Source: a bacterium
GTDB lineage: Bacteria > Vulcanimicrobiota > Xenobia > Xenobiales > Xenobiaceae
NCBI GenBank assembly: GCA_017458675.1
Contig: JAFTAM010000176.1
Coordinates: 2,282 to 66,281 of the forward strand
Direction: 5' to 3'
DNA: 64,000 nt
Position 1 is the stretch's first letter, and each line of letters starts with the position of its first letter. The translations under genes and the position numbers were made by a program. Below, piece after piece: positions 3,340 through 57,292 of this stretch. The notes beneath the pieces are model-generated. The model made no database searches and was not told the origin of the DNA. It was given only the letters and a program-made list of their open reading frames with translations.

Positions 3340-3536
3340 CCGGCGGTGAAGCGACCGGCTCAGGATGACGCCAAACTTTGTCATTCTGAGCGGAAGGCGA
3401 AGAATCTATACCTTTTTACAATAAAGACCCTTCGACAAGCTCAGGGTGACATGAGAGACAGGCTCAGGGGCATAAAAAACCTTGGCCGGAGACATGTCTA
3501 AGCGCTCACACTTGTCATTGAGAGCGAAGAATCTAA
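3340..3536. repeat. Cluster of palindromic core units (GGCTCAGGATGACA / TGTCATTCTGAGCGNAGCGAAGAATCTAT) plus a 95-bp unit shared with 5190-5285
   Basis: Cores at 3379-3409 and 3513-3536. ACAATAAAGACCCTTCGACAAGCTCAGGGTGACATGAGAGACAGGCTC...GGCCGGAGACATGTCTAAGC recurs at 5196-5280. Confidence 0.8.
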
Positions 3537-3561
3537 ATTTTTAATATTCAGGAGGCAGGCA

Positions 3562-44900: not shown

Positions 44901-45946
44901 CTCTGAAACGCGTCTTTGAAGAGCTCAAGGTCGAGGTTATCGCCCGCCCCAAAGGGACCCGCGCCTTAGCCGAAGAGGTCATTTTCGGCCGAGCCAGGGA
45001 CGCCGAGCTGATAATGGGCGAAGGTTTCGACGTACCCTCGGAGCCTCAGCCGAAAAGCTCCGACAACGCGCCGCGCGAAAGCTTTCGGCGCACTCTGAAC
45101 CTTCAGAATTACAGTTTTCTTCAGGATCACGTAATTAACGGCCGCCCGGTCATGCCTATCGCCCTCATGGTGGAACTGGCCGCCCAGGCCTGCCGCAGTT
45201 ATTTCCCCGAATACAAATTCTTAGGCTGCGACAAACTGCGGGTCCTCCACCCCATCGCTCTGCCCGCGGACAAGAACATCGCCGCTGAAAAGAGAGCTCA
45301 GGCAGAGAGCGACCTCTGCATAAGCGCGGACAAACTCATTAAAGAAGACAATCTTCTGCAGGCGGAACTGACCTTCTGGCACTCCGACGGAAGCGGCGAA
45401 AGGCGGAAATGCGTGGTCTGCACGGCCCTTTTAGGCAAAGAAAGACCTGATAATTCCAAGGTTGAATTCCCCCGGACTCAGACCGCCGCAGCCGCCGACA
45501 GCCGCCGCCACAATATAGAAGATATTTATAAAAACTATCTCTTCCACGGTCCCAGCTTAAAAGGCATAGACAATATTGAGCGCCACAGCCCGAACGATAT
45601 TGTTGTAAACGCAAGAAACTTGGGAGGTTTGCCGTTAAGCCAGCCTGACGGAGAAGCGCTCACCGATCCTCTGTTTTTAGACTGCGCTCTGCAGACGGGC
45701 CTTATATTCAGCGGTCTGGAGCAGGGAAGCTGCTCGCTGCCTATGTACTGCGGCCGATACCGCCAGTATGTCGATAAATTCCCCGCCAGCGCCAAAATAG
45801 CTCTGGTAGCCAGCGACAGCAACCCTCAGCAGCTCAGGGGCGATATTTACATCGAACATGACGGCGACATTTTAGCGCATCTGGGCGACGTTCACTGGAC
45901 CGTAAGTCCCGGCTTGGCCGAATCCTTCCGCCGAAACCGCTTATAA
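38981..45946 (+). CDS. pfaA: PfaA-like multidomain polyketide/fatty-acid synthase: KS-AT-ACPx3-KR-DH
   Basis: GTG start overlapping the pfaD end (AGGAG RBS). KS motifs DAACASSLAAVHL, EAHGTGTKVGD, KSQIGHTKAS. AT motif GHSFGE. Three ACP repeats (LGIDSIKRVEILSAIQ, LGVDSIKRVEILAAIQ, LGIDSIKRVEILAAIQ at ~nt 42640, 42955, 43270). KR motif IIVTGGARGVT. PKS-type DH motif LQDHVINGRPVMP. Confidence 0.9.
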   Translation: MSVNKSVKTKDQPENMPIAIIGMGCLFPKAGDRQSFWRILRTGADCIGPVPETHWSVNDLYDGDHSSPDRCYAKMGGFLEPYPFDPTEFNIPPNVLEATDTSQLLGLVGAKAALEDAGYGQEGKELPKDRTSVILGVTGALEMVIPLGARLGHPRWRKALAQAGIDKETSEKIIADIADSYVSWQENSFPGLLGNVVAGRIANRLDLHGTNCAVDAACASSLAAVHLAVSELQAGQADVCLTGGTDTFNDIFMFTCFSKTPALSDSGRISPFSESCDGTLLGEGIGVLVLKRLADAERDNDRIYAVIKGMGTSSDGNSGAIYAPSAPGQAMALRRAYEESAVDPKTVEVVEAHGTGTKVGDAVEFKALKEVYLEAGAAPQSCALGTVKSQIGHTKASAGAASLCKAAFSLFHKVILPTLNVSRPNPKLEIEDSPFYLNTSVRPWISNPHHPRRIGVSSFGFGGANYHAVLEEHKPERLAPAWDGSVQIWPFSAADKQSLIASVRSAAACKPYESAYQACLQRETFDHKAPCRAVIVTGPADYAEKLAALADALENGKEQSNALPEDAYYGDVSSELGKVAFLFPGQGSQYVRMGSELFSVFPEALQVLECAQQTLKGSGQAPAEYIFPKPRFTENEEEENTKALTDTKITQPSLGAMESAMAAVLERFEVVPQAMAGHSFGELVALQRAQVYSQKDLFSLSALRGALMAAGDGGRGAMAAVSAPLADIEAIVAEVGGDLVLANRNHPTQGVISGTKEALAKAEELCKAKKMTAKRLQVSAAFHSSLMRSARDPFFSALEQTEFKTPVLPVYANMTGKLYGSEAEKNRQTLADQLVSSVRFIDIVEDMYAEGFRTFIEVGPKTVLTGLVKKILGKNPCNLLSTDGRKGGDELKNIALTLARLAALGYAVKLAAWEEKVAKPRHKRMEVPICGANYRTPGKKAPAPWSDPHEPAENYQPIKFVSDNPPVMPAPTPIEKLEIVELNSQNQAAAPAEPAAIRSSASNSAAYSPVKDSPVSNTVFNSQPAAAVSPAAPIPSAGSSSVLLEAFKTIQSGLSAMQVLQEQTASAHMRFLESQEQIQRSLQSIISAQQGLAQVSLKPQALQTLHVMPALHIPAPAAFSQPTAAVQPAAPKIAAQPQPETLSFSPMAGYSANEPLPVPISSPKNESRDSGNQNLQLPKAPQEKPQTDAAVAVLSVVSEMTGYPADMLRLDMNLETDLGIDSIKRVEILSAIQRSLPQAKTIAPDEIGSLQTLQQIIERLGVSSAAPQPKTAPAVPAVPASPEPKAEPAARPQGSAEKIVMKVVTETTGYPEEAVNLDMDLENDLGVDSIKRVEILAAIQKALPDAAQIAPDELSSLHTLRQILNKLQPESKASPLSASESKETVSRPSAPEQNLQSGSVAETIISVIAEMTGYPVETLNPDLDLENDLGIDSIKRVEILAAIQKALPNVKDIAPSELTDLHTIKDIIARLSSDPHDPQGGPSPSDPDKDKKKDHNSGIDRKNSGPDPHSAAALGGALFGSEPPLLRRRLRYLPSPRPSQSAETANQGLYLILGDKNLGRALKNALTLSGKQAEFIPVQKVSDLMLPQKFSVIAVMEHTDIKQEEDVYKTFRQSQRSLKELFRSVRAVCQACNKKKIHPQSFTTVTCLDGAFGTERPDFQPIEAGLHGLARVMANEYPQTVCRAFDVDSQLQTAEAAALIAEELKVKGSNEVGLSAQTRRIAVLQEDRLNLEQPNPSLPARPVIIVTGGARGVTADCAKTLAKACRPRFILIGRSPVPRKEAAETAQASTPQALKSLLYTQAKARGLSLTPKDLEATCRQILANREALQNIAELEAAGSEALYISADVQDFSQVKEAVNLAKKRFERIDGVIHGAGVLADRYIADKTDEQFNRVFDTKICGLYNLCQALKDEPLKFVLTFSSVSARFGRPGQCDYAMANEVMNKFTHFASFRHPQTRYTAMGWGPWEGGMVDAALKRVFEELKVEVIARPKGTRALAEEVIFGRARDAELIMGEGFDVPSEPQPKSSDNAPRESFRRTLNLQNYSFLQDHVINGRPVMPIALMVELAAQACRSYFPEYKFLGCDKLRVLHPIALPADKNIAAEKRAQAESDLCISADKLIKEDNLLQAELTFWHSDGSGERRKCVVCTALLGKERPDNSKVEFPRTQTAAAADSRRHNIEDIYKNYLFHGPSLKGIDNIERHSPNDIVVNARNLGGLPLSQPDGEALTDPLFLDCALQTGLIFSGLEQGSCSLPMYCGRYRQYVDKFPASAKIALVASDSNPQQLRGDIYIEHDGDILAHLGDVHWTVSPGLAESFRRNRL

Positions 45947-46051: not shown

Positions 46052-49000
46052 ATGTCAGATAATCACTGCGATATAGCTATAGTCGGAATGGGACTGCACT
46101 TTCCCGGCGCGGACAGTCCCGAACAGTATTGGAAAGCTCTGCAGAGAGGCGAAGATCTCGCCCGCCCCATGGATGAAAAGAGACGCAAGGTTTCCCTAAA
46201 CGGCCTGATCAGTCCACAGACCAAAGCCGACGCTATGCGCTGCGACAGGGGATATTTTTTAAACGCTCTGCCCACGCCTCAGCAGCTTGATCTTCCCGAG
46301 GGAACAGACCCTCTTTTTGTTTTGGCATTAAGTACGGCGGAGCAGGCCTTAAAGGACGCCGGCAAGCTGCCGTCGGAACAGACCGGCGTCATTATGGCCT
46401 CCATCGCCCTGCCCACCGATACCACCTCGGCCCTGAGCGAAAGCACGCTGGGACGCAGCTTTGCCGAGAGCCTGCAGGCCAAGCTGCCGCCGGATAAAGC
46501 CTCGGCCGTCTCACCCGCCGAACTGCTGCCCTGCGAATATACTTTCCTCAGCAGCGTCTCCGACAGCAGCGAACAGGTTAAAGCTCTGAACAATTACCCG
46601 GTCGGACTTCCGGCTCAGCTGATCGCCTCCCGTTTCAGCCTGGGACTGGGAGCTTACACTTTAGACGCGGCCTGCGCCTCCTCGCTGGTAGCTATCGAGC
46701 TGGCCTGCCGGGAACTGCGCAGCGGGCGCGCCGAGGCCATGTTGGCCGGCGGCCTCTCCCGCCCCGACTGCCTCTACACTCAAATGGGCTTTTCCGCCCT
46801 CCACGCCCTCTCGCCCAGCGGCGCATGCTCTCCTTTTGACAAAAAAGCCGACGGACTTATGGTCGGCGAAGGCTGCGGTCTGGTCGTTCTGAAACGCCTG
46901 AAAGACGCCGAACGCAGCGGCGACAAAATTTACGGAGTCATTAAAGGAACAGGTCTTTCCAACGACATCGAAGGCAGTCTGGTGGCCCCGGCCAACGAGG
47001 GGCAGATCCGCTGCCTCCGGGACGCCTATCAAATCTGCGGCCTGAAGCCCTGGGATATAGACTTTATCGAATGCCACGGAACCGGCACACCGGTAGGCGA
47101 CAGCATTGAGTTCAAAAGCCTGCAGACTCTCTGGGAAGGAGCTCCCGAAAGCAGCCGCTGCCAGCTCCGCTCCGTCAAATCCATGCTGGGCCATTTATTG
47201 ACCGCCGCCGGTTCCGCCGGCTTAATCAGAGTGCTCTTAAACCTGCAGAAGGGGCAGATCACGCCGCAGGTCAACTTCAATGAAGCGGGCATACCTCTGA
47301 AAGAGAGCCATTTTGAAATATCCAATCAGTCCGTATCCTGGCCGAAAAAGGCCGAGGCTCCCCGCCGGGCCGCCGTCAGCGGCTTCGGCTTCGGCGGCAT
47401 CAACGCCCATTTAATTATCGAAGAATATCTGCCTCAGACAGCCTGCGAAGTCAACAGCGCGGCAGACGCACGGGCAACCGCTTCCTCCGCGCCCGCCTCT
47501 GCAGAAGAATCTGAAAACGGCGAAGAAGCGGCCGCCATTATCGGAATGGCCTGCCGCTTAGGCCAAATCGGCAGCATTCGCGAACTGGCCGGCGCTTTGT
47601 TGGACGGAAATTTTGAAAATGCAAAAATTTCGCCGGAGCCGTCCGCTCAGACATGCGAAAAATCCCGTCAGGGCGGCGCTTTCCTGAACAAGGTCGACAT
47701 ACCTATAGGGCGCTTCCGCATCCCTCCCGCCGATCTGCCCTCCATTCTGCCTCAGCAGTCCCTGCTTTTAAATACGGCCGCCGAGGCTATGCTCGACGCC
47801 GGTCAGCCCCTGCGCCTGCAGCGCGAGAGAGCCGCTGCGGTTATCGGCATAAATCTCGACTTAAATTCCACAAATTTCAATCTGCGCTGGCTGTTAAAAG
47901 ACAAAGCTGAAATCTGGGCGCAGAATTTAGGCTTAGACGAAAATGAAGCCAAGAGATGGCAGGAGGCCCTCAAGGATGAAATCTCCGAGCCCCTGGATGC
48001 GGTAAAAACTATCGGCGCTTTAGGCAGCATCGCAGCCAGCCGCGCCGCCCGCGAATTCCGTTTCGGCGGATGCTCTTTTACGGTGTCTTCCCAGGAGCTG
48101 TCCGGCTTTGACGCGCTGCAGATAGGCGCAGAGGCTCTGCTGAACCGCCGTCAGGATTTAATATTAGTCGGCTCAATAGACCTTCAGGGAGATCCGCGCC
48201 TGGCCTCCTGCCGCTTAAAAGACGAACCCATGCCCGAAAAATACGGAGAAGGGTCCTGCTGCCTGGTTTTAAAGAGGTACAGCGACGCCGTAAAGGACGG
48301 AGACCACATTTATGCGCTCATTAAAGGCTTGGCCAAAGCTGGCGCGGCCGCCCCGGAGAAAGACTCCTATACCGCTTTGGAAACGGCTTTGCGGCAGGCC
48401 TGTGAATACTCAGGAACACCGGCCGAAGACATTGCCTATCTGGAAACGGTCAACGGGCAATATCTCAGTCAGGGTCCCCAGAGCGCCTGTCAGACCCTGC
48501 GCCGCGTCTTGGACAGAGGGACCAAACCTCTGAGCGCGGGCAGCATTGAGGATTACGTCGGCCATAACGGCGCAAATTCCTTTACAGCCTCCCTGATCAA
48601 AACCGCCTTATGTCTCGACCAGGAGCTCTGGCCCGCCTCCAGACATTTTGACAGACTCTGCGGAGACGCAAACGATTGGCGCGGCAGTCGCTTTACCGTA
48701 CAGAAAACTTCATCTTTCTGGTTCAGAAACCGAGCTGAGGGGCCGCGGCGGGCCTTAGTCTGCGGGCGAGCCTACCCCGGTCAGTATGCCGCCGCCGTCT
48801 TAGAAGAACATTTTTCCGACGCTTACAGACCTCTGGCCGCTCCGCAGCTGCAGATCGGGATCTGGCCCTTCTTCGGCGAAAACGCCCAGGCGATAACCGC
48901 CAAACTGTCGGCGGTCCTGGAAAAAACTAAAGAGCTGCAGTCCCTGTCTGCGTCGGCTTCAGAGCAAAGCCGCCTGCTCCGGAACTTATGCCTGGATAAT

Positions 49001-52000
49001 TACCGCAGGGAAAAGGAAGAAGGAGCATCCCGCCTGTGTCTGGCCATAGCCAGCGACAGAAAAAACTCCGCTCCCCTCGCGGAATTCCAAAAACAGCTGG
49101 AAACAGCTCTGCAACATCTGCAGACCTCGCCCGAACAGGAACTGCGCCAGAATTCAATATTCTACAGCGCCGAGCCGCTGGCAAAATCCGGAAAAACAGC
49201 CTTTGTCTATCCCGGTTCAGGCGCAAATTTCTTAGGTTTGGGGCGCGAATTCGCTCTCAATTTCCTGCCTCTCATGCATCGCTTCGACCGCGAAAATCTG
49301 TATATGGCCGGCGAATTTGCCGCTAAATACAATCAGCCTCTGCGCCTGGACTGGTCTGAAGGCTGGCAGCAGAGAGCCGTACAGGAGCTGCAGGCCGACA
49401 CTCATCATATGATGTCCAGCCAGGTGAGCTTCGCCATGCTGACCACTGATATCGCGCGCTCTCTGGGTATAGAGCCGAACTGCGCCATAGGCTACAGCCT
49501 GGGCGAATCCTCGGCCCTCTTCTCTCTGCGGGCCTGGCCGGACCGCGATAAGATGTATCTGCGCATGGAGGGCTCCGATCTCTTCCGGGAGAAACTTTCC
49601 GGCAAATGCACGGCCGCCCGTCAGGCCTGGCACATTCCCGAAAACGCTCCCTTCAGTTGGAGCGCCGCCCTCTTGCCCGTACCGGCCGATAAGGTTAAAG
49701 AGGCGCTCAAGAATGTTAAAAACGCGCGTCTGCTGATTATCAATACCGACAAAGAGTGCGTAGTCGGCGGAACTCCCGAAGGCATTGACGAACTTTGCGC
49801 TCTGCTGCATACCAAAGCCATTAAAGTCAGCGGCGTAGATACCGTACACTGCGACTGTCTGGAGCCTGCGGCTGAAGAATATTGGCATATGCACCATCTG
49901 CCCTGCCAGCCTCTGCCCGGGGTTGAGTTCTACAGCGGCTGCAAAAACTGCGCATATCCTCTTACTTCAGAAAATATCGCCGACTCAATCGTCTCCCACG
50001 GACGGTACGGTTTTGATTATACAAAAACCATTCGCCGCGCCTGGGAGGACGGGGCCCGCATATTCCTTGAGATGGGACCGGGCTCTTCCTGCGCCCGCAT
50101 GATCCGCAGTATACTGCGCGGCAAACCACATTTTGCCATTAGCCTGAGCGGACGCGGCCAATCGGAGATGTTCTCCCTGGCCCAGTTCCTGGCAGGCGTT
50201 CTGAGCCAGGGGCTCCGTCCCGATCTCAGCCCGTTCTTCCCCTCGCTGCAGGCTGAAAAAGCAGAAAAGACGACGCCCACCCTGACCGTCCCGCTGAGCC
50301 GCCGTCCCTGCGATCCTCCGCTTCCCGCTTTTCCGAAAGCTTTATTCTCTGAAGGCACAAATACCGCTATGACCCAGAAAATTAAAACCGATTTGACGCT
50401 CGAATCCGAAACTGTCCCTGTCGAAACCGCAAAACCGGCCGAAGGCAGGACGCTCACAGAAATAACTGCGCTCAGCGCTGCCGAGGCAGCTTCAGTTCCG
50501 GACGCTCCGAAATGCGTCTGCGCCGATCCTCTGCAGAGTCTGCTTATGCAGCTGGCCCGAAATTCAAATTCAGCCCACCGGAAATGGCTTGAATTTGTCG
50601 GACAAAGCGCTAAAGTCTGGGAAAACCTTCTGGTCGGTCAAAGCAGCCTTATCTCCCAGGCCGCCGCCGGCAATCCGCAGCTGTTCAGGGAGCCGCTGAC
50701 AGTTGAAAAACCGTCGGAAGCCGCGCCTGTCTTATCCCCGGCGGCCCAATTTGCGCCTCATTCAGAAGATAAAGACCAAACTCACAAAGAGCACGGCTAC
50801 ACTCATAAGCTGCACGGCATCGAAACTACCGCCGACGGAGGCTATATCTGCGGCTTTAAGCCCAGCCTGGCCCCGCCCGATCAAAAGGTATTTTTAAACC
50901 GTCGGCAGTGTCTTGAATTTGCTACCGGCAAAATCGGCGACGTCTTGGGCGAACAGTTTGCTCCCATAGACAGCTATGCCGCCCGAGTGCGCCTTCCTGC
51001 CGAACCCTTGATGCTGGTAGACCGCATCGTTTCCATTGAAGGCGAACCTCTCAGCTTAGGCGCCGGACGCATAATTACCGAGCACGACGTCGTCCCCGAT
51101 ATGTGGTATCTCGACGGAAACCGCGCCCCGGTCTTTATTTCCGTGGAAGCCGGCCAGGCCGACCTGTTCCTGTGCAGCTGGCTGGGCATAGACTTCCAGG
51201 CCAAGGGCGACAGAGTATACCGGCTTTTGGACGCCAACGTCAAATTCCACCGCGGCCTGCCTCAGCCCAGCGAAACCGTACGCTACGATATCCGCATCAA
51301 GCGCTTTATCAACCAGGGAGAGACCTGGCTCTTCTTCTTTGAATACGAAGGAACTATCAACGGCGAGACCTTCCTGACCATGCGCGATGGCTGCGCCGGC
51401 TTCTTTACTCAGGAGGAGATCCGCAATAACGGCGGCCTGGTCATGACCGAAGCCAGCCTGCGCCCTCAAAAAGGCAAAAAAGGTCCGGAAGTCCAGGAAC
51501 TGACTCCTCTGAGCGCTTCCAGCTACACGCTGGAACAGGTCGAGGCTCTGCGCCGCGGCGATCTCGAGGGCTGCTTCGGCGCCGCCTTCGCCGGTCTGAA
51601 TCTGAAGAAGCCCGTAAGCCTGCCCGCCGGTCTGCTGCGCCTGATCCACCGCATCCCCGAATGCGACCCCTTCGGAGGACGCTGGGGCCTGGGCAAGGTG
51701 GTGGCCGAAGCCGACGTCCATCCCGAAGACTGGTATCTGACCTGCCACTTCATAGACGACATGGTCATGCCGGGAACCCTGATGTACGAATGCTGCGCTC
51801 ACGCTCTGCGCTTCCTATTAACCCGCTTTGGCTGGGTAGGCGAACAGGATAAAATTGCCTATGAACCGGTTCTGGGCGTCACCGCCGTACTCAAATGCCG
51901 CGGCCCGGTTCTGCAGACCACCAAGACCGTGCGCTACCAGGTTGAGATTAAGGAAATGGGCTACAACCCGGCGCCTTACGTCATTGCCGACGCTATCATG

Positions 52001-53380
52001 TACGCCGACAACAAGCGCATAGTGGGCTTTGAAAACGTTTCCATGCAGCTGACCGGCACAACCGGCGAAGAGCTGGAAAAGCTCTGGGCTGAGCGCAGCG
52101 CTTCTTCCCAAAACGCAGCTATTGAGCCGGGAAGCGCCTGCACTGACGACTGCGGCGACCCCAGAGCCGCCAATCCCGGCGATCTCAGCCATGCCGACGG
52201 CCGTTTAGGTCTGCTGCCCGCTTATAAAAATGTTACCATGAACGGCGATCCTCTCAAGGAAGCCATATTTACCGAGGAAAACTTCCGCCAATTTTCCGTA
52301 GGTCAGCCCAGTCTGGCCTTCGGCAAGGCTTTCAGGCCCTTCGACTCCCGATTTATAGCCCGCCTGCCGGGAGTGCCCTATCAGTTCGTAAACCGCATCG
52401 TGAGCGCCGATCATCCCTTCTTGGAGACCAAAGCCGGCGGCTGGGTAGAAGCGCAGTACGACGTACCGGCCAACGCCTGGTATTTTAAGGCCAACAAGAC
52501 CGGAGCCATGCCCTTCTGCGTAATAAATGAAATCGCGCTGCAGGTCTGCGGCTGGGTCTCCAGCTATGCCGGTTCTTCCCGCCACAGCTCGGATCCCTTA
52601 TATTACCGAAATTTGGGCGGAACCTCCGTGCTGCGCAGGGAAATTACTCCTCAAACCGGACGCATAACCATTAAGGTGCGCATGACTAAATCCTCGGAAG
52701 CAGGCGGACTGATCATTCAATCCTTTGATATGAAAATCGAGCAGAAGGGTGAAGTTATATATGAAGGCACGACCACCTTCGGCTTCTTCACTAAGCAGGC
52801 CCTTGCCGATCAGGTAGGCATCCGCGGCTGGAAGAGCAGAATTTGGCTGCCCGAGCAGGAAAATACGCCCGAAAGTCTGCCGATACAGCATCCCTTAAGC
52901 CCCTATGACGAAAATCTCGAGCAAAGCGGCAGCCTGGAACTTCCCGCCAAGGCTCTGCTGATGCTGGACAGCTTCGCCTGGTATCCTCAGGGCGGAAGCA
53001 AGGGACTGGGTGCGGCGGTAGGACGCAAAAAGATCGATCCCAAGGAATGGTTCTTCACCGCCCACTTCTTCCAGGATCCGGTCATGCCCGGCTCCTTAGG
53101 CTTAGAAGCCTTCCTGCAGGTACTTAAGGCAGCCGCCTTAAAACTGTGGCCCCACTTGCAGAAGACCCATCGCTTCAGCGCTATAACCGCCGGTTCTCCT
53201 CATACCTGGCTCTACCGGGGACAGGTTACCCGCGCCAATTCCTTTACAACCGCAAGAGCTGAGATAACCGAAATCCATGACGGTCCCGAGCCGTATCTGA
53301 AGGCCCGAGGCTTCCTGCAGGCCGATGATTTAACTATTTACGAGCTTCAGGATTTCGGCATAGCTCTGCTGAAAAGCTGA
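46052..53380 (+). CDS. pfaC: PfaC-like protein with integrated acyltransferase: KS-CLF-AT-DH(FabA-like)x2
   Basis: KS motifs LDAACASSLVAIEL, ECHGTGTPVGD, KSMLGHLLTA. A second KS-like domain lacks the active Cys (chain-length factor). AT motif AIGYSLGESSALFSL (~nt 49490). Two FabA-type hotdog pairs with CHFIDDMVMPG (~nt 51740) and AHFFQDPVMPG (~nt 53060). Ends ~110 aa after the last DH. Confidence 0.9.
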   Translation: MSDNHCDIAIVGMGLHFPGADSPEQYWKALQRGEDLARPMDEKRRKVSLNGLISPQTKADAMRCDRGYFLNALPTPQQLDLPEGTDPLFVLALSTAEQALKDAGKLPSEQTGVIMASIALPTDTTSALSESTLGRSFAESLQAKLPPDKASAVSPAELLPCEYTFLSSVSDSSEQVKALNNYPVGLPAQLIASRFSLGLGAYTLDAACASSLVAIELACRELRSGRAEAMLAGGLSRPDCLYTQMGFSALHALSPSGACSPFDKKADGLMVGEGCGLVVLKRLKDAERSGDKIYGVIKGTGLSNDIEGSLVAPANEGQIRCLRDAYQICGLKPWDIDFIECHGTGTPVGDSIEFKSLQTLWEGAPESSRCQLRSVKSMLGHLLTAAGSAGLIRVLLNLQKGQITPQVNFNEAGIPLKESHFEISNQSVSWPKKAEAPRRAAVSGFGFGGINAHLIIEEYLPQTACEVNSAADARATASSAPASAEESENGEEAAAIIGMACRLGQIGSIRELAGALLDGNFENAKISPEPSAQTCEKSRQGGAFLNKVDIPIGRFRIPPADLPSILPQQSLLLNTAAEAMLDAGQPLRLQRERAAAVIGINLDLNSTNFNLRWLLKDKAEIWAQNLGLDENEAKRWQEALKDEISEPLDAVKTIGALGSIAASRAAREFRFGGCSFTVSSQELSGFDALQIGAEALLNRRQDLILVGSIDLQGDPRLASCRLKDEPMPEKYGEGSCCLVLKRYSDAVKDGDHIYALIKGLAKAGAAAPEKDSYTALETALRQACEYSGTPAEDIAYLETVNGQYLSQGPQSACQTLRRVLDRGTKPLSAGSIEDYVGHNGANSFTASLIKTALCLDQELWPASRHFDRLCGDANDWRGSRFTVQKTSSFWFRNRAEGPRRALVCGRAYPGQYAAAVLEEHFSDAYRPLAAPQLQIGIWPFFGENAQAITAKLSAVLEKTKELQSLSASASEQSRLLRNLCLDNYRREKEEGASRLCLAIASDRKNSAPLAEFQKQLETALQHLQTSPEQELRQNSIFYSAEPLAKSGKTAFVYPGSGANFLGLGREFALNFLPLMHRFDRENLYMAGEFAAKYNQPLRLDWSEGWQQRAVQELQADTHHMMSSQVSFAMLTTDIARSLGIEPNCAIGYSLGESSALFSLRAWPDRDKMYLRMEGSDLFREKLSGKCTAARQAWHIPENAPFSWSAALLPVPADKVKEALKNVKNARLLIINTDKECVVGGTPEGIDELCALLHTKAIKVSGVDTVHCDCLEPAAEEYWHMHHLPCQPLPGVEFYSGCKNCAYPLTSENIADSIVSHGRYGFDYTKTIRRAWEDGARIFLEMGPGSSCARMIRSILRGKPHFAISLSGRGQSEMFSLAQFLAGVLSQGLRPDLSPFFPSLQAEKAEKTTPTLTVPLSRRPCDPPLPAFPKALFSEGTNTAMTQKIKTDLTLESETVPVETAKPAEGRTLTEITALSAAEAASVPDAPKCVCADPLQSLLMQLARNSNSAHRKWLEFVGQSAKVWENLLVGQSSLISQAAAGNPQLFREPLTVEKPSEAAPVLSPAAQFAPHSEDKDQTHKEHGYTHKLHGIETTADGGYICGFKPSLAPPDQKVFLNRRQCLEFATGKIGDVLGEQFAPIDSYAARVRLPAEPLMLVDRIVSIEGEPLSLGAGRIITEHDVVPDMWYLDGNRAPVFISVEAGQADLFLCSWLGIDFQAKGDRVYRLLDANVKFHRGLPQPSETVRYDIRIKRFINQGETWLFFFEYEGTINGETFLTMRDGCAGFFTQEEIRNNGGLVMTEASLRPQKGKKGPEVQELTPLSASSYTLEQVEALRRGDLEGCFGAAFAGLNLKKPVSLPAGLLRLIHRIPECDPFGGRWGLGKVVAEADVHPEDWYLTCHFIDDMVMPGTLMYECCAHALRFLLTRFGWVGEQDKIAYEPVLGVTAVLKCRGPVLQTTKTVRYQVEIKEMGYNPAPYVIADAIMYADNKRIVGFENVSMQLTGTTGEELEKLWAERSASSQNAAIEPGSACTDDCGDPRAANPGDLSHADGRLGLLPAYKNVTMNGDPLKEAIFTEENFRQFSVGQPSLAFGKAFRPFDSRFIARLPGVPYQFVNRIVSADHPFLETKAGGWVEAQYDVPANAWYFKANKTGAMPFCVINEIALQVCGWVSSYAGSSRHSSDPLYYRNLGGTSVLRREITPQTGRITIKVRMTKSSEAGGLIIQSFDMKIEQKGEVIYEGTTTFGFFTKQALADQVGIRGWKSRIWLPEQENTPESLPIQHPLSPYDENLEQSGSLELPAKALLMLDSFAWYPQGGSKGLGAAVGRKKIDPKEWFFTAHFFQDPVMPGSLGLEAFLQVLKAAALKLWPHLQKTHRFSAITAGSPHTWLYRGQVTRANSFTTARAEITEIHDGPEPYLKARGFLQADDLTIYELQDFGIALLKS

Positions 53381-53489
53381 ATTTGTTAAAATTTATTAAA
53401 TAATTGATTCAGAGTTTACATTTTTACAACACATAGACAGCGACATAATGCTATTATTAAAATGAAATATTTTATCGGAGGATAACAAG

Positions 53490-54374
53490 ATGTTTACTCC
53501 CGGTGTACCTTTCGGTCCCAACCCCTTCGGGGGTCCGTTAGGCATGGGCATGGGCGTAATAGGTCCTGCCGCTGTGCTGGCCCAGAGTTCGGCCATGACC
53601 GGAGCGGCAACCTTAGCCTATACCGTCGGCGCATTCAACACCGATATGCTGGGCGCCGCAATCTGCGCAGAAGCGCTGGGCGGTCCTCAGTTTGAATACG
53701 CCATGGGCGGTTATGCCGGCTCTATAGCCGGACAGGGAATCGGCGGTCTTTTAGGCATAGGCCTCGGTTCATATTTCGGCGGTCCGATGGGTATAATCGG
53801 CGGCGGAATGCTCGGCTCGATCTTAGGCGGAGGTATCGGCGGCGATTTGGCCAGAGATCTCTTTACTCCGGTTCCTTTCCCGCAGGACTCTTTCCCGCAG
53901 GACTCCTTCCCGCCCGGATCCTTCCCTCCGGGGTCTGTCCCGCCCGGGTCTTATCCGCATTACGGCAGCGGCCCGGTTTACACTCCAACTCCAACCCCTT
54001 CTCCCAGCACGGATACGGATAACACAAAAAAGGATAACGATTATCCTTATACTCCGCCCCCGCCGCCAGACTTTTACGGTCCCGGCCGCTTTGGCCACCA
54101 TCGCCGCCATCCCGGCGGTCCCTTCGGTCCGCGTCCGTTCCCCGGCGGTCCCTGGGGTCCCCGTCCCGGCGGACCTTACGGTCCCAGATATCCCGGCGGC
54201 TACGGCCCTCGTCCCTATCCGGGGACTAATCCCAGCACAAATCCGGGTTCTTATATTCCGCGTCCTCCTGTTCCTCCCGTGCCTCCGCGCCATAGCCGCG
54301 GTCCCGGCGGACCGGGCGGCCCCGACGGTCCTGACGGCCACGGTCCCAGACGCAGACGCGAGCTGCATTTCTAA
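53490..54374 (+). CDS. Glycine-zipper / Pro-Gly-rich small protein, paralog 1
   Basis: GGAGGATAACAAG RBS-leader. N-terminus MFTPGVPFGPNPFGGPLGMGMG. Gly-zipper hydrophobic segment GIGGLLGIGLGSYFGGPMGIIGGGMLGSILGGGIGG. C-terminal PGGPxGPRP repeats. Confidence 0.55.
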   Translation: MFTPGVPFGPNPFGGPLGMGMGVIGPAAVLAQSSAMTGAATLAYTVGAFNTDMLGAAICAEALGGPQFEYAMGGYAGSIAGQGIGGLLGIGLGSYFGGPMGIIGGGMLGSILGGGIGGDLARDLFTPVPFPQDSFPQDSFPPGSFPPGSVPPGSYPHYGSGPVYTPTPTPSPSTDTDNTKKDNDYPYTPPPPPDFYGPGRFGHHRRHPGGPFGPRPFPGGPWGPRPGGPYGPRYPGGYGPRPYPGTNPSTNPGSYIPRPPVPPVPPRHSRGPGGPGGPDGPDGHGPRRRRELHF

Positions 54375-54592
54375 GCCTTCTGATTTTAAACAAAGCAGGC
54401 TGAATTTCAGCCGCAAGTGTTTTTCTAAAAAAGCATCTTTATTCGCATAGGCAGAACGCCCTTAAAAAGCCGTATGCCCTGGATATGTGATAAATAGAAA
54501 GAATATTCAGTCCGACGCGCATATCTTTACGGCTGCTGCAGTAAGGAGCCTATCTGCCTCGGATAGAAAGATTATCTACGGAGGATAACAAA

Positions 54593-55372
54593 ATGTTTAT
54601 TCCCGGTGCACCTTTTGGTCCCAATCCGTTCGGCGGTCCGTTCGGCATGGGCATGGGTATGATGGGTCCTGGCCCGCTCATGGGCGCAGGAACCGCTTTA
54701 GCCGGAGCCGCTACCCTGGCTTACGGCGTAGGCGCTCTTAACACCGCTATGCTGGGCGCCACTCTCGGCGGCGGAATGATGGGCTGCCCCCAGATGTCCA
54801 ATGGCATGGGCGGCTTTGCAGGTTCTGTCGTCGGTCAGGGAATCGGCGGACTCTTAGGCATGGGCTTAGGCTCTTCTATCGGCGGCCCTATGGGAATGGT
54901 CGGCGGCGGAATGCTCGGCTCGATCTTAGGCGGAGGTATCGGCGCCAAGATCGGTAATGACATGCAGCAGGCCAGACAGGCTTATCAGCAGCCTCCACAG
55001 CCCGGCCCCGAACCCGGCCCGGTCAGAAGCGATGAAGCTTCCAGTACCGTAGGCGACGCTCTTAAAGGCGCGGCTATCGGAGGCGCAATCGGTTTAGGCG
55101 CCGCTGCCATAGCCAACTCAGCCAGCGCCAGCTTCTTCCCGCCTCCTCCTCCGCCTCCCGGCGGTCCCTTCGGCGGTCCTTTCGGTCCCGGTCCCCGACC
55201 CGGCGGCCCCTTCGGCGGTCCCTTCGGTCCCGGTCCCCGACCCGGCGGCCCCTTCGGCGGTCCCGGTCCCCGTCCCGGCGGTCCCTTCGGCGGTCCCCAT
55301 CCTCACCACGGTCCTCATCCCGGCGGTCCCTTCGGCCCCGGTCCTCACCGCGGTCCCGGTTTTCCATTTTAA
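54593..55372 (+). CDS. Glycine-zipper / Pro-Gly-rich small protein, paralog 2
   Basis: Identical GGAGGATAACAAA leader. N-terminus MFIPGAPFGPNPFGGPFGMGMG. Same Gly-zipper block. C-terminal (GGPFGGPFGPGPRP)n. Terminator follows. Confidence 0.55.
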   Translation: MFIPGAPFGPNPFGGPFGMGMGMMGPGPLMGAGTALAGAATLAYGVGALNTAMLGATLGGGMMGCPQMSNGMGGFAGSVVGQGIGGLLGMGLGSSIGGPMGMVGGGMLGSILGGGIGAKIGNDMQQARQAYQQPPQPGPEPGPVRSDEASSTVGDALKGAAIGGAIGLGAAAIANSASASFFPPPPPPPGGPFGGPFGPGPRPGGPFGGPFGPGPRPGGPFGGPGPRPGGPFGGPHPHHGPHPGGPFGPGPHRGPGFPF

Positions 55373-55394
55373 TAAATAGCTTTTGAACGTACAA

Positions 55395-55430
55395 GCGGCT
55401 TCTGCAGATTCGCAGAAAGCCGTTTTTTTA
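55395..55430 (+). terminator. Rho-independent terminator
   Basis: CGGCTTCTGC-loop-GCAGAAAGCCG followed by TTTTTTTATT, 20 nt after the 55372 stop. Confidence 0.65.
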
Positions 55431-55545
55431 TTGTTATTTGGCTAAACGCAGCGCCTCTCGGAGCCGGCCGGCTTACTGGCCTTAAACTTTATTTAATGAA
55501 GCTCGGGGGCGCGCCGAAGCAAAGAAGCAACGCCTATCGTCAATG

Positions 55546-55770
55546 TCGGTAAGCTAAACAAAAACTAGCTTTAAGCAGGCATGCTTAACAGAGGATTTGC
55601 CCTGCACAAAAGCGAGCGTCCGAGCCGAAGGCGCCGCGAAGCGAAATACAAATCAAAGCCGGCTCAGCGAAAACATACAGAACATGTTTGAAAGATTCTT
55701 CGCAGCGCTCTCAATGACAGAGTAAACGATTAAGAGTATAATTGTTCGCCTTATAAATACCGACCTGAGT
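55546..55770 (+). repeat. Dispersed intergenic repeat, copy B (more diverged)
   Basis: TCGGTAAGCTAAACAAAAACTAGCTTTAAGCAGG...GAAAGATTCTTCGCAGCGCTCTCAATGACAG...TTCGCCTTATAAATAC. Forms the left flank of the AT-rich island. Confidence 0.75.
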
Positions 55771-56926
55771 ACTTATACATGTCAGTTGAGGACAATAATT
55801 CTGTTCTATAATACAATAAATACAGAAATACTGTACAATAATTCAGCCGGTTTGCATTGCTGTAAGTATTATTGCACACAAAAAAATGAGGCTGGCAGCA
55901 ATCGGCACAGCCTCATATTACTCAAAATACATATTCAAATGCCGAAAATATTCAGAGTCCCTCCCGCTGCAGCATTTTGAATACATATTCTTAAAATTCC
56001 GTCAGATATCGCAGTCAACAAAATGAAGCTTATTATACTGCAATTCCAAGGTAAGGTCGTCATCTCTGATAATGCATAAGCTCTGTTTTCCCCGTATTAT
56101 GAGCTATGCACAGCAGAGACTACAAAAACGGTATTTCTGAAATATCTTCAGCATAATAACATACTCTTCCCCTAAGAGAGACAATAAAAGTATTATTGCC
56201 ATTATTTGCTGAAGAATTAGAAAAGAAACTCAGCCCGCCGCCATTATTGTTCTGCAATAATGCCCAGAAATAACTGATTGGAACAGATAATGACATAAAA
56301 GATACAGCATTTATTGCTAAACTGACAATAAAAACGGTTAAGGTATGACCTTCTTTTCAACACTAATTGATATCATCTCCATTTCGGATATGACTCATTG
56401 TTTGTTTTCATTCCTTTTCACTAAACTGACCTGTGAAATACTGTCAGCAATATTTCACCTATGACAGCTGCGTTTAATTATCCCCCACGACAGCTGGTCA
56501 CGTTGTCACAAAATCGGCCTTAAGAATGAAAACCCGTCTCAGAATTCGATAAAGCATCCCTATAGACAATCACAAATGATACTGATAATACAATAAAGAT
56601 AAACTCGTCAGGTAAAACTAATCTGTCGCGAACAATAATACACTCAGAACATCAAATAAGCCTTGCAATAACCTGTCAATACGCCTGATAACGACATTAT
56701 GACAATATAATGCTTCCATCTTCCCCACCCTCTTACTGGTCTGGACATCAATTAATTGCTGTCCTTTTGTAGTATTATAATACCACAGCAGACAATAATA
56801 ATCAACACCTATTTATATTATTGTATAACATTTTTGGTACTTTCTTCAGACCATGATCGAAGCGTGATAACATAATACTGACGCAGCTCCGCTATTTTAA
56901 ACCTGCCAGATAAAAGATACTCACTG
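55771..56926. other. AT-rich (about one-third GC) gene-less island flanked by direct copies of the dispersed repeat
   Basis: Sampled lines give ~30-35 percent GC against a ~58 percent background. No ORF of 60 aa or more except the weak 55786-55980. Contains hairpins and dyads (55886-55916; GTGAAATA-n9-TATTTCAC at 56436-56460; duplicated GACAGCTG at 56464-56498). Confidence 0.6.
55879..55916 (-). terminator. Orphan rho-independent terminator (minus strand) inside the AT-rich island
   Basis: Minus-strand reading shows ATGAGGCTG-loop13-CAGCCTCAT followed by TTTTTTT. No ORF of 60 aa or more on the minus strand upstream of it (55920-56900). Confidence 0.5.
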
Positions 56927-57179
56927 CCGGTAAGTTAAGAAAAACAGGCTTTAAGCATACACGCTTAATAAAGGTTTTCTTTGACGCGTACGCGGAGATT
57001 CGAGCACAGCTTCGCGCGGAGCGGCAGCGACAAAGAAAACCGGCATAACGAAAACATGCAGAACATGATTGAAAGATTCTTCGCTGCGCTCTCAATGATA
57101 AGGGAAACACTCTTAAGCATATACAGACAAGCTTTTATGCCATTTTCGGCAAAATCTTGCCTTAACTATATAACATTGG
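56927..57179 (+). repeat. Dispersed intergenic repeat, copy C
   Basis: CCGGTAAGTTAAGAAAAACAGGCTTTAAGCATAC...GAAAGATTCTTCGCTGCGCTCTCAATGATAAG...CTTGCCTTAACTATATAACATTGG. Forms the right flank of the island, ~115 nt upstream of the HAD gene start. Confidence 0.85.
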
Positions 57180-57292
57180 TCTTATGCGGCAAGTTATTTT
57201 TAGCCAAGCTAACATTTTCATCAGTTAAGTTTTCCATAAATACCGGATATGTAGTAAAATACATATCCATTTAAACGGAGCGGAAAAAAACA

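What the first reader, a model, noticed from the sequence alone, without database searches (positions are those of the whole stretch)
53490..55372. Tandem glycine-zipper / Pro-Gly-repeat paralogs immediately downstream of the lipid synthase
Two adjacent genes, 53490-54374 and 54593-55372, share an identical ribosome-binding leader (GGAGGATAACAARATG). They also share a near-identical N-terminus (MF[TI]PG[VA]PFGPNPFGGP[LF]GMGMG) and a glycine-zipper hydrophobic block (GIGGLLG[IM]GLGS...GGPMG[IM][IV]GGGMLGSILGGGIG). This block is reminiscent of glycine-zipper 2TM / SlyB-like membrane segments. Their C-termini diverge: one carries GPRP/GGPxGPRP repeats, the other perfect tandem GGPFGGPFGPGPRP units. 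There is no terminator between the pfaC-like stop (53380) and the first paralog. The first clear terminator is after the second paralog (55395-55430). So they may be co-transcribed with the megasynthase. Their composition (Gly+Pro greater than 45 percent) is unlike standard enzymes. Possible roles are a membrane-embedded or structural partner, or a lipid-body/secretion-associated protein family. I do not recognise it as a described family.
Basis: seen in the sequence. Interest (0 to 1): 0.62.

Follow-up and report, generated by a model that had tools for sequence, protein, structure and literature searches.

The report
Orphan glycine-zipper protein pair beside pfa genes
Two neighbouring genes in an uncultured herbivore-gut bacterium encode real, conserved proteins of a tiny undescribed family, built from a very regular membrane-type "glycine zipper" hairpin and a floppy proline-rich tail, but nothing beyond adjacency ties them to the lipid megasynthase next door.

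Summary
ORFs 53490-54374 (A, 294 aa) and 54593-55372 (B, 259 aa) are paralogs, 65% identical over residues 1-123. Both have GGAGGATAACAA leaders. No terminator follows the pfaC-like stop, and a canonical one follows B. Both genes are under purifying selection (dN/dS 0.09-0.16, like pfaC at 0.14).

The core is an unbroken run of 12-13 glycines at exact i+4 spacing, which no shuffle of the N-domain reached (0 of 50,000). AlphaFold2 models it as a helix-GGP-helix hairpin. The tails are disordered, net basic, and vary by in-frame repeats.

Curated Pfam, NCBIfam, PADLOC and PDB-sequence searches gave no accepted match. The only Pfam signals were sub-threshold glycine-zipper hits.

Searches of 1.8-5.8 billion proteins found one full-length relative (a B ortholog) and three 98-130 aa relatives. 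The short relatives are not next to pfa genes. Forty-two pfaC-related loci from other phyla lack the family.

A conserved promoter-like element sits just upstream of A.

My best reading is a new, lineage-restricted (Vulcanimicrobiota, class Xenobia) family of self-associating, membrane-embedded glycine-zipper hairpin proteins. They would work like SlyB/YfgH or Mic10 but are not members of those families. A dedicated role with the Pfa synthase is unsupported but not excluded.

The parts
46052..53380 (+). pfaC/pfaBC-like megasynthase gene (KS-CLF-...-FabA x4) immediately upstream. This is context only. It forms a cluster with the pfaD-like gene at 37345-38994 and the pfaA-like gene at 38981-45946.
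   Evidence: Pfam domains. NCBI names the first gene PfaD family, MBQ7503320.1.
53381..53489 (+). pfaC-A spacer. It is AT-rich and unstructured, has no terminator, and is 84.6% identical to relatives, against 62-70% at third codon positions of the flanking genes. It is probably a regulatory region or 5'UTR for A.
53449..53457 (+). TGCTATTAT, an extended -10-like element about 34 nt before the ATG of A. It is conserved in L001 and L002 and, as TGCTATCAT, in the distant homolog L003.
   Evidence: An overlapping TAGACA-18-TAAAAT site was found by the scan. The function is inferred, not shown.
53477..53481 (+). GGAGG ribosome-binding site of A, with an 8-nt spacer.
53490..54374 (+). Paralog A, 294 aa. 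It has an MFTPGVPFG N-terminus, an N-domain (aa 1-117) with no Lys, Arg or His and only three acidic residues, and a Pro/Gly/Arg/His/aromatic tail that ends in RRRRELHF.
   Evidence: (dN/dS 0.12 for the N-domain, 0.155 for the tail).
53706..53840 (+). Glycine-zipper core of A (aa 73-117). It consists of 12 glycines at exact i+4 spacing, forming tetrads of the type G-x-hydrophobic-hydrophobic. A GGP turn at aa 97-99 splits it into a helical hairpin.
   Evidence: (H68-96 and H99-125, pLDDT 69-82).
53841..54371 (+). Tail of A, predicted disordered. It contains FP(Q/P)(D/G)S repeats, a TPTPTPSPS linker, PPPPP, and GGPxGPRP units. It is net basic (17 K+R against 12 D+E, with 7 His).
   Evidence: L001 and L002 differ by one 9-aa unit.
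54375..54592 (+). A-B spacer. It is not conserved apart from the ribosome-binding site. It carries hairpins without a U-tract, which could attenuate or stabilise the transcript.
54580..54584 (+). GGAGG ribosome-binding site of B.
54593..55372 (+). Paralog B, 259 aa. It has the same N-domain with no charged residue in aa 1-117, then a polar linker, an extra Gly/Ala-zipper helix and a PG-repeat tail that ends in GFPF.
   Evidence: (dN/dS 0.09).
54809..54955 (+). Glycine-zipper core of B (aa 73-121), with 13 glycines in i+4 register.
   Evidence: H69-97 and H99-131, pLDDT 74-82; Gly-zipper_Omp E = 0.0036, sub-threshold.
55058..55117 (+). Fourth helix specific to B-type proteins, ALKGAAIGGAIGLGAAAIAN (aa 156-175). 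It is conserved in P0001 and in L003.
   Evidence: H151-177, low confidence.
55157..55264 (+). A 42-bp tandem repeat, 2.6 copies at 96% identity, encoding PGGPFGGPFGPGPR. This region is absent from the 196-aa ortholog.
55393..55429 (+). Intrinsic terminator after B. An equivalent terminator follows B in L001.

Best explanation
A and B are two real, probably well-translated paralogs of a very small, previously undescribed protein family. The family is so far seen only in uncultured bacteria. Two of the lineages can be placed in the phylum Vulcanimicrobiota (Eremiobacterota). The window itself most likely belongs to the gut-associated class Xenobia.

**Architecture**
- A conserved N-terminus, MFxPGx(P/G)FG.
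- A domain of about 117 aa that is almost free of charged residues. Its core is 12-13 GxxxG tetrads in perfect register, split by a GGP turn into an alpha-helical hairpin.
- In A and B, a long, disordered, net-basic tail rich in Pro, Gly, Arg, His and aromatic residues. The tail grows and shrinks by in-frame tandem repeats.
- A C-terminal aromatic residue.

**Proposed mechanism (inferred, not shown)**
The hairpins embed in a membrane, most simply the cytoplasmic membrane, because there is no signal peptide and the tails are basic. They pack through their glycine faces into homo-oligomers or A-B hetero-oligomers. The oligomers would organise or stabilise a patch of membrane, or form a pore or ring. 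The flexible tails would stay at the membrane surface as spacers or binding arms.

This is the working principle of the glycine-zipper hairpin lipoproteins SlyB, YfgH and OsmB, and of mitochondrial Mic10. A and B are not members of those families.

**Relation to the pfa genes**
Transcription probably starts at a dedicated promoter about 35 nt upstream of A and ends at the terminator after B. Read-through from pfaC is possible. The position next to the pfa-like cluster is most likely a lineage-specific accident of gene order, not evidence of a shared function.
For: **Real genes**
- dN/dS against orthologs in L001 is 0.12 for the A N-domain, 0.09 for the B N-domain and 0.155 for the A tail. pfaC gives 0.14.
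- Both genes have a perfect GGAGG at 8 nt, conserved in the orthologs and in L003.

**Zipper**
- Twelve to fourteen glycines lie in i+4 register in A, B and L003. No shuffle of the N-domain reached 12 (0 of 50,000).
- AlphaFold2 gives a helix-turn-helix with pLDDT of about 70-82 in both proteins, while the rest is below 55.
- The isolated cores align end to end with Pfam Gly-zipper_Omp, Glycine zipper 2TM and YMGG at sub-threshold scores.
- The SlyB hairpin (7ojf_A) appears among the non-significant Foldseek hits: 47 columns, rmsd 3.0, E = 5.1.

**Membrane-like chemistry**
- Residues 1-117 hold 0 charged residues in B and 3 in A. The short relatives have 0-2 charged residues in about 100 aa.
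- Every tail has more K+R than D+E, plus His.

**Literature on how such hairpins work**
- SlyB and YfgH: transmembrane GxxxG hairpins that oligomerise around lipid (10.64898/2025.12.22.696046).
- Mic10 oligomerisation (PMC4431669).

**Own promoter**
- The pfaC-A spacer is 84.6% identical, against 62-70% at third codon positions. TGCTATYAT is conserved even in L003.

**Not a general pfa partner**.
Against: - No localisation, oligomerisation or expression data exist.
- The hydrophobicity of the zipper helices is modest (19-residue Kyte-Doolittle window of about 1.0-1.3). Classical predictors might therefore not call them transmembrane. From my own knowledge, not tested here, the same is true of SlyB-type zippers.
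- There is no signal peptide or lipobox, so the insertion route is unknown.
- The AlphaFold2 models are weak overall (mean pLDDT 54, six-sequence alignment).
- All similarity to known zipper families is below curated thresholds and could be convergent composition.
- The TPTPTPSPS linker in A is more typical of extracytoplasmic proteins, which conflicts with a cytoplasmic tail.
- Tight adjacency to pfaC with no terminator, conserved in three related genomes, leaves a functional link open.
Confidence: 0.35

Rival explanations
1. A and B are self-assembling low-complexity proteins that are not membrane-embedded. The Gly/Met/Phe-rich N-domain and the tail with Arg/Tyr/Phe 'stickers' and Gly/Pro 'spacers' would drive amyloid-like, hydrogel, condensate or elastomer-type assembly. 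The result would be, for example, an intracellular inclusion or matrix, or an envelope or extracellular structural material.
For: - The whole sequence is compositionally extreme: Gly+Pro is 42-48%, and 12-22 aromatic residues are scattered through the tails.
- The tails have no predicted structure.
- Repeat number varies between close relatives.
- Glycine zippers also drive insoluble, SDS-stable aggregates in CdzC and in amyloids (PMC5380434).
- The hydrophobicity of the helices is below the classical transmembrane threshold.
Against: - The exact 12-13-unit i+4 register with hydrophobic residues at positions 3 and 4 of each tetrad, and the conserved GGP turn, point to a defined helical hairpin rather than a generic low-complexity region.
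- The almost complete lack of charge over about 117 residues would make a cytosolic protein very insoluble.
- The N-domain is under strong purifying selection (dN/dS 0.09-0.12).
Confidence: 0.2
2. A and B are a two-component glycine-zipper toxin or bacteriocin, like Cdz or class IIb systems. The two paralogous zipper peptides would act together to permeabilise the membranes of competitors.
For: - Tandem paralogous glycine-zipper proteins match the layout of cdzC and cdzD (PMC5380434).
- Glycine zippers are common in membrane-depolarising toxins such as TelE, Tse4, LXG-T2 and Tde1 (PMC12955049).
- A GG pair lies at aa 14-15 after a conserved N-terminus.
- The short relatives (98-117 aa) fall in the Cdz-like size range.
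Against: - No ABC/type I secretion genes, C39 peptidase or small immunity-like membrane protein were identified among the ORFs of at least 120 aa scanned across the 64-kb window, or in the fetched flanks of the short relatives.
- A and B are 259-294 aa with long Pro-rich tails, whereas Cdz-like proteins are 60-151 aa with a short polar C-terminus.
- The N-terminus does not resemble a double-glycine or RTX-type leader.
- No hit in plasmids, phage contigs or PADLOC.
Confidence: 0.12
3. A and B are dedicated partners of the Pfa-like synthase. They would be co-transcribed with it and would either anchor the megasynthase to the membrane, or coat or organise the very-long-chain lipid or hydrocarbon product in a lipid nanodomain or lipid body, in an oleosin-like or SlyB-like way.
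For: - A follows the pfaC stop after only 109 nt, on the same strand, with no terminator. The first strong terminator comes after B.
- The order pfaA-pfaC-A-B is conserved in L001 and L002.
- The long hairpin domain, almost free of charged residues, is oleosin-like in principle.
- In related pfa clusters the same position holds product-processing genes, an OleA-like thiolase and a hydrolase (PMC3098273).
Against: - The synteny is known only among close relatives (pfaC 84% identical over the C-terminal 500 aa).
- All three short distant relatives lie away from any pfa gene.
- None of the 42 pfaC-related loci encodes the family.
- A has a conserved promoter-like element of its own, which is also present upstream of the L003 homolog.
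- There are no co-expression data.
Confidence: 0.1
4. The ORFs are not genes. They would be chance open frames in GC-rich repetitive DNA.
For: - Long antisense ORFs also run through the region (53823-54416 on the minus strand, 197 aa).
- There is no family annotation.
Against: - dN/dS of 0.09-0.16 in the stated frame.
- Strong conserved ribosome-binding sites.
- Indels between relatives are in frame.
- Protein-level homologs at 45-60% identity exist in unrelated contigs.
- NCBI accession numbering leaves four protein accessions between PfaD and HxpB, which would fit pfaA, pfaC, A and B if the numbers are sequential (inferred).
Confidence: 0.02

Closest known systems
Glycine zipper 2TM hairpin lipoproteins (SlyB, YfgH, OsmB, YiaD; Pfam PF05433 Rick_17kDa_Anti and PF13488 Gly-zipper_Omp)
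   Same: - Two consecutive (GxxxG)n helices are joined by a short turn.
- Sub-threshold alignments cover the whole Pfam profiles end to end.
- AlphaFold2 gives a helix-turn-helix.
- The expected behaviour is the same: oligomerisation through the Gly faces within a membrane (10.64898/2025.12.22.696046).
   Different: - Scores are below the gathering thresholds (17.6 against 25 bits; 12.4 against 24.2 bits).
- There is no lipoprotein signal peptide or lipobox.
- The zipper is about twice as long and strictly periodic (12-13 tetrads).
- There is an extra conserved N-terminal MFxPG...PFGG segment and a small-residue helix at aa 27-55.
- The long Pro-rich tail replaces a periplasmic beta domain.
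- A PDB sequence-profile search did not retrieve SlyB.
CdzC/CdzD two-protein glycine-zipper bacteriocin of Caulobacter (PMC5380434) and class IIb bacteriocins
   Same: - Two adjacent paralogous genes encode proteins rich in Gly and small hydrophobic residues, with extended GxxxG zippers.
- Aggregation-prone chemistry.
   Different: - No type I secretion or immunity genes nearby.
- No recognisable leader peptide.
- A and B are 2-3 times longer, with Pro-rich repeat tails.
- No detectable sequence homology was found. The Cdz sequences themselves were not available for comparison here.
Mic10 (MICOS) and other small glycine-rich hairpin membrane shapers
   Same: A small hairpin of two glycine-rich helices whose oligomerisation organises or bends a membrane (PMC4431669). 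This is a functional analogy only.
   Different: Mic10 is a eukaryotic mitochondrial protein. There is no sequence or fold match, and Mic10 motifs are much shorter.
Oleosins and lipid-droplet hairpin proteins
   Same: A long hairpin almost free of charged residues with a central Pro-containing turn, flanked by polar regions, next to lipid-synthesis genes.
   Different: There is no sequence similarity. The hairpin is glycine-zipper based rather than built on Leu/Ile/Val with a proline knot. No evidence exists that this organism makes lipid bodies. This resemblance comes from general knowledge and was not tested.

Membership tests
Pfam PF05433 Glycine zipper 2TM (SlyB-type) and PF13488 Gly-zipper_Omp | Profile match at or above the curated gathering score. 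| tested here: not met
   Full-length A and B gave no hit at E <= 10. Isolated cores gave PF13488 at 17.6 bits (cut-off 25) and PF05433 at 7-12.4 bits (cut-off 24.2).
Pfam PF05433 Glycine zipper 2TM (SlyB-type) and PF13488 Gly-zipper_Omp | Two GxxxG-repeat alpha-helices joined by a short turn. | tested here: met
   G73-G93 and G101-G117/121 lie in i+4 register around G97-G98-P99. AlphaFold2 gives H68/69-96/97 and H99-125/131 at pLDDT of about 70-82.
SlyB, YfgH and OsmB outer-membrane lipoproteins | N-terminal lipoprotein signal peptide with a lipobox cysteine. | tested here: not met
   The sequences start MFTPGVPFGPNPFGGP and MFIPGAPFGPNPFGGP. There is no basic n-region, no hydrophobic h-region and no L-x-x-C lipobox. 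This was read directly.
SlyB, YfgH and OsmB outer-membrane lipoproteins | Ring-shaped oligomers that enclose lipid or outer-membrane proteins. | not testable with these tools
   Only single-chain structure prediction was available.
Cdz-like two-protein bacteriocins (criteria in PMC5380434) | [quoted passage not shown] | tested here: not met
   A is 294 aa and B is 259 aa, with Pro/Gly tails of 142-177 aa. The short relatives (98-117 aa) fit the length range but end in GYGLF or GYGFF.
Cdz-like two-protein bacteriocins (criteria in PMC5380434) | [quoted passage not shown] | tested here: inconclusive
   A GG pair lies at aa 14-15, but the preceding MFxPGxPFGPNPF is unlike known double-glycine or RTX leaders. 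No cleavage predictor was available.
Cdz-like two-protein bacteriocins (criteria in PMC5380434) | Adjacent type I secretion genes (ABC transporter plus membrane fusion protein) and an immunity gene. | tested here: not met
   No such domains appeared among the ORFs of at least 120 aa scanned across the 64-kb window or in the fetched flanks of the relatives.
Accessory component of Pfa / PUFA-synthase-like clusters | Conserved co-occurrence with pfa genes across lineages. | tested here: not met
   None of the 42 pfaC-related loci from 185,579 species genomes encodes the domain. The distant family members lie away from pfa genes. The linkage is seen only in close relatives L001 and L002 and in contigs of the same species, L004 and L005.
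Pfam PF04226 Transglycosylase-associated (GlsB/YeaQ/YmgE) | Profile match at or above the gathering score. | tested here: not met
   Scores were 7.8-9.1 bits against a cut-off of 25.3.

The most novel reading that the evidence does not exclude
A and B form a hetero-oligomeric glycine-zipper scaffold that evolved in gut Xenobia to handle the product of the adjacent Pfa-like synthase. It would enclose or stabilise a membrane nanodomain or lipid body rich in very-long-chain polyunsaturated lipid or olefin, or tether the megasynthase to it. The basic Pro-rich tails would act as adjustable spacers. This would be a bacterial oleosin-like or SlyB-like organiser at the cytoplasmic membrane, dedicated to a secondary lipid.
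Probability: 0.1. Interest if true: 0.75.

Novelty: new variant of a known kind. Interest (0 to 1): 0.4.

Why it matters
If the reading is right, this is a new, phylum-restricted family built on the most regular glycine zipper I could find in the data: 12-14 GxxxG tetrads in register. It occurs in a phylum, Vulcanimicrobiota, that has a single cultured representative and almost no characterised envelope proteins.

Glycine-zipper hairpins are emerging as membrane-domain organisers (SlyB, YfgH) and as pore-forming toxins. A version without a signal peptide, fused to a repeat-variable proline-rich tail, would extend that repertoire.

The practical value for pfa biology is mainly negative. The pair should not be annotated as part of the PUFA-synthase-like cluster on present evidence.

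Tried and rejected
**Family libraries**
- Pfam, NCBIfam and PADLOC scans of the full proteins returned nothing. PHROGs gave only weak matches to the glycine-rich segments of tape-measure proteins (best E = 0.00027).

**Structure databases**
- PDB sequence searches with the family profile and with both proteins found nothing below E = 1.
- Foldseek of the B model against the PDB gave nothing significant (best E = 2.4). The model is too weak outside the hairpin for fold searches to mean much.

**Protein database searches**
- The word-index protein search returned only the B ortholog. It did not even return the query's own protein, although that protein is on record in the contig index. Sensitivity for this low-complexity family is therefore imperfect.
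- The exhaustive HMMER search also listed hits that were compositional or repeat artefacts. I rejected P0002, P0003, P0006 and P0007 by inspection.

**Genome and contig scans**
- A pattern scan of the GTDB species genomes for the family found none. The patterns were exact to PFGPNPFG and GP[LF]GMGMG, so diverged members could be missed.
- Viral contigs and plasmids gave no hits.

**Reaching pfa genes in a relative**
- I tried to reach pfa genes in Ca. Bruticola by synteny from MiaB. Gene order is not conserved beyond the S41 peptidase-MiaB pair, so I abandoned this.

**Upstream context of L003**
- Only 141 nt of AT-rich DNA are available upstream of the L003 homolog, so pfa linkage there cannot be judged.

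**Sorting signals**
- I considered C-terminal sorting signals because of RRRRELHF. I rejected this because no hydrophobic segment precedes the Arg cluster.

**Not attempted**
- I did not search with the tail of A alone.
Full report
**1. What is in the sequence**

ORF A (53490-54374, 294 aa) and ORF B (54593-55372, 259 aa) lie on the + strand. They directly follow a 2442-aa pfaC-like gene that ends at 53380. Upstream of that gene are a pfaD-like enoyl reductase (37345-38994) and a pfaA-like KS-AT-ACP-KR-DH protein (38981-45946).

The two proteins are 65% identical over the first 123 residues and 51% overall. The leaders are cGGAGGATAACAA(G/A)ATG in both.

B carries a 42-bp tandem repeat, 2.6 copies at 96% identity, which encodes PGGPFGGPFGPGPR. 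A carries GGP[FWY]GPRP units and FP(Q/P)(D/G)S units.

**2. They are genes**

A relative of B (P0001, 196 aa) lies on two metagenome contigs, L001 and L002. Both carry the same order pfaA-pfaC-A-B.

Against L001, dN/dS is 0.12 for the A N-domain, 0.09 for the B N-domain and 0.155 for the A tail. The pfaC gene gives 0.14. Indels between relatives are in frame. The A orthologs of L001 and L002 differ by exactly one 9-aa YPGGPYGxR unit.

The window's PfaD and HxpB proteins are NCBI accessions MBQ7503320.1 and MBQ7503325.1 of a MAG labelled only "bacterium". Four accessions lie between them, which would fit pfaA, pfaC, A and B if the numbers are sequential. This is inferred from the numbering.

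**3. Organism**

The window's MiaB is most similar to proteins from Candidatus Bruticola (68%), Vulcanimicrobiota MAGs (51-55%) and Candidatus Xenobia (47%). Bruticola belongs to the class Xenobia of the phylum Vulcanimicrobiota, also called Eremiobacterota. The same proteins occur in a metagenome assembly named XIEF21-1_SAMN15829943_METAG. I take this to be a ruminant gastrointestinal data set, from my own knowledge of that naming and not from a tool result.

The placement rests on one gene and is therefore moderate in confidence. The only cultured member of the phylum is a diderm with an outer membrane (PMC9758169).

**4. Anatomy of the proteins**

Residues 1-117 hold no charged residue in B and three acidic ones in A.

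From G73 onward every fourth residue is glycine. The chain is 12 long in A (G73...G117), 13 long in B and 14 long in the L003 homolog. The tetrads have the form G-x-hydrophobic-hydrophobic. A chain of 12 was reached by 0 of 50,000 shuffles of the N-domain and by 1 of 50,000 shuffles of the core. The centre of the run is G97-G98-P99.

AlphaFold2 with a six-sequence alignment gives weak models overall (mean pLDDT 54). In both proteins it places a helix, a turn and a helix at 68/69-96/97 and 99-125/131, with pLDDT of about 70-82. A preceding helix (aa 27-55) has a small-residue (Ala/Gly/Thr) i+4 stripe. B-type proteins add a fourth Gly/Ala-zipper helix (aa 156-175), which is conserved in P0001 and L003.

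The tails have no predicted structure. They are net basic and rich in His, Pro and aromatic residues.

Two small features are conserved across all seven family members. The N-terminus is MFxPGx(P/G)FG, and the last residue is aromatic (Phe six times, Trp once). I have no explanation for either.

**5. Comparison with known families**

- Full-length scans of Pfam, NCBIfam and PADLOC returned nothing. PHROGs gave only weak matches to the glycine-rich segments of tape-measure proteins (best E = 0.00027).
- When only the cores were scanned, Pfam Gly-zipper_Omp aligned over its whole length (E = 0.0036, 17.6 bits, cut-off 25). Glycine zipper 2TM (E = 0.16), YMGG and Transgly_assoc followed.
- PDB sequence searches found nothing.
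- Foldseek found nothing significant. The SlyB hairpin appeared at rank 3 with E = 5.1.

The motif class is therefore known. Membership in any curated family is not met, and the lipoprotein signal that defines the SlyB group is absent.

**6. Distribution**

An exhaustive HMMER search of 1.84 billion cluster representatives listed seven proteins. Only three are real relatives:
- P0001.
- P0004 (105 aa).
- P0005 (98 aa, labelled Candidatus Eremiobacterota).

An alignment search added P0014, called as 130 aa but probably 117 aa from its internal MFMPG start. A metagenome scan added L003, a 285-aa B-type protein with the same ACGGAGG leader.

The short proteins consist of the N-terminal motif, the zipper hairpin and a C-terminal Phe. 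They hold 0-2 charged residues. Their neighbours are unrelated to lipid synthesis and include mfd, GGDEF proteins, an M28 peptidase, ppx and a GT4 glycosyltransferase.

A scan of 185,579 species genomes with the C-terminus of pfaC returned 42 loci, mostly Desulfobacterales but also Elusimicrobia, Ca. Uabimicrobium and others, at 45% identity or less. None encodes the family. In many of them the first gene after pfaC is a ~346-aa FabH/thiolase-like gene, followed in several by an alpha/beta hydrolase. This fits the link between pfa and olefin (ole) genes proposed for Type I clusters (PMC3098273).

Caveat: database sensitivity for this low-complexity family is imperfect. The first word-index search did not return the query's own protein, and the genome scan used exact peptide patterns.

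**7. Transcription signals**

- The 109-nt pfaC-A spacer has no terminator and no stable fold (z = +0.74).
- That spacer is 84.6% identical to L001 and L002. Third codon positions of the flanking genes are 62-70% identical. The A-B spacer is 58% identical over the part that aligns, and 119 of its columns are gaps.
- Within the pfaC-A spacer, TGCTATTAT (53449-53457) resembles an extended -10 element. It recurs at the same distance from the ATG in the distant L003 gene.
- Hairpins without U-tracts follow A. Canonical terminators follow B in both the window and L001 (z about -4).

The simplest reading is an A-B transcript with its own promoter. Read-through from pfaC is possible but not required.

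**8. Interpretation**

The evidence shows a new, rare, lineage-restricted family with a glycine-zipper hairpin core. How it works is inferred from what such hairpins do elsewhere. They sit in membranes and pack through their glycine faces into oligomers that organise lipid (SlyB, YfgH: 10.64898/2025.12.22.696046), bend membranes (Mic10: PMC4431669) or form pores in toxins (PMC12955049, PMC5380434).

I favour a resident membrane oligomer, possibly an A-B hetero-oligomer, with basic tails on the cytoplasmic side (confidence 0.35). The rivals are:
- A non-membrane self-assembling material (0.2).
- A Cdz-like two-component toxin (0.12). This is weakened by the absence of secretion and immunity genes and by the long tails.
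- A dedicated Pfa-product organiser (0.1).
- Spurious ORFs (0.02).

**9. Verdict**

I rate it a new variant of a known kind, of moderate interest.

Noticed in passing
window 55430-57290 (repeat copies at 55557-55727 and 56937-57108): A 1.9-kb AT-rich stretch (39% GC, against 54% for the window) follows B and has no ORF longer than 64 aa. It holds two copies of a ~170-nt direct repeat, 79-85% identical and 1381 nt apart, flanking about 1.2 kb. There is no Rfam match. The 40-nt core occurs nowhere else in the window, and among the fetched loci only in contigs of the same species (L004, L005).
   Followed up: partly
L001 and L002, contig ends: Both related contigs end about 550 nt downstream of B. 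This suggests an assembly break at the same AT-rich or repetitive region.
   Followed up: no
L013-L051, immediately downstream of pfaC (for example L014 12201-14133): In many pfaC-related clusters from Desulfobacterales, Elusimicrobia, Ca. Uabimicrobium and Riflebacteria, pfaC is followed by a ~346-aa FabH/thiolase-like (OleA-like) gene, and in several of these by a ~295-aa alpha/beta hydrolase. The window lacks these two genes at that position and has A and B instead.
   Followed up: partly
window 46052-53380 (motif at about 49490): The pfaC-like protein contains a GYSLGE acyltransferase-type motif at aa 1147, between the KS/CLF domains and the FabA domains. It may therefore be a pfaBC fusion, with pfaD placed first in the cluster. 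Pfam did not call an AT domain at E <= 1e-5.
   Followed up: no
all family members, both protein termini: The N-terminus MFxPGx(P/G)FG is conserved in all seven proteins, and the last residue is aromatic (Phe six times, Trp once), even though the tails are otherwise unrelated. The reason is unexplained.
   Followed up: partly
L007/L008 (P0004): NCBI labels the contig that carries P0004 as Candidatus Nitrosotenuis, an archaeon. Its neighbours (mfd/TRCF, GGDEF, T2SSE) are bacterial, and its synteny matches the P0014 contigs. It is probably a mis-binned contig.
   Followed up: no
window 53381-53448: The conserved part of the pfaC-A spacer contains TTATTAAATAA, with 5-nt inverted arms, and a tandem TTTACA...TTTACA. 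These may be a regulator binding site.
   Followed up: no
window 3562-4950 (+) and 3498-3932 (-): A repeat-rich surface protein similar to a leucine-rich-repeat adhesin or Gli349. Its antisense frame gives a Gly-rich ORF that weakly hit the zipper profile. I judged this hit to be spurious.
   Followed up: no
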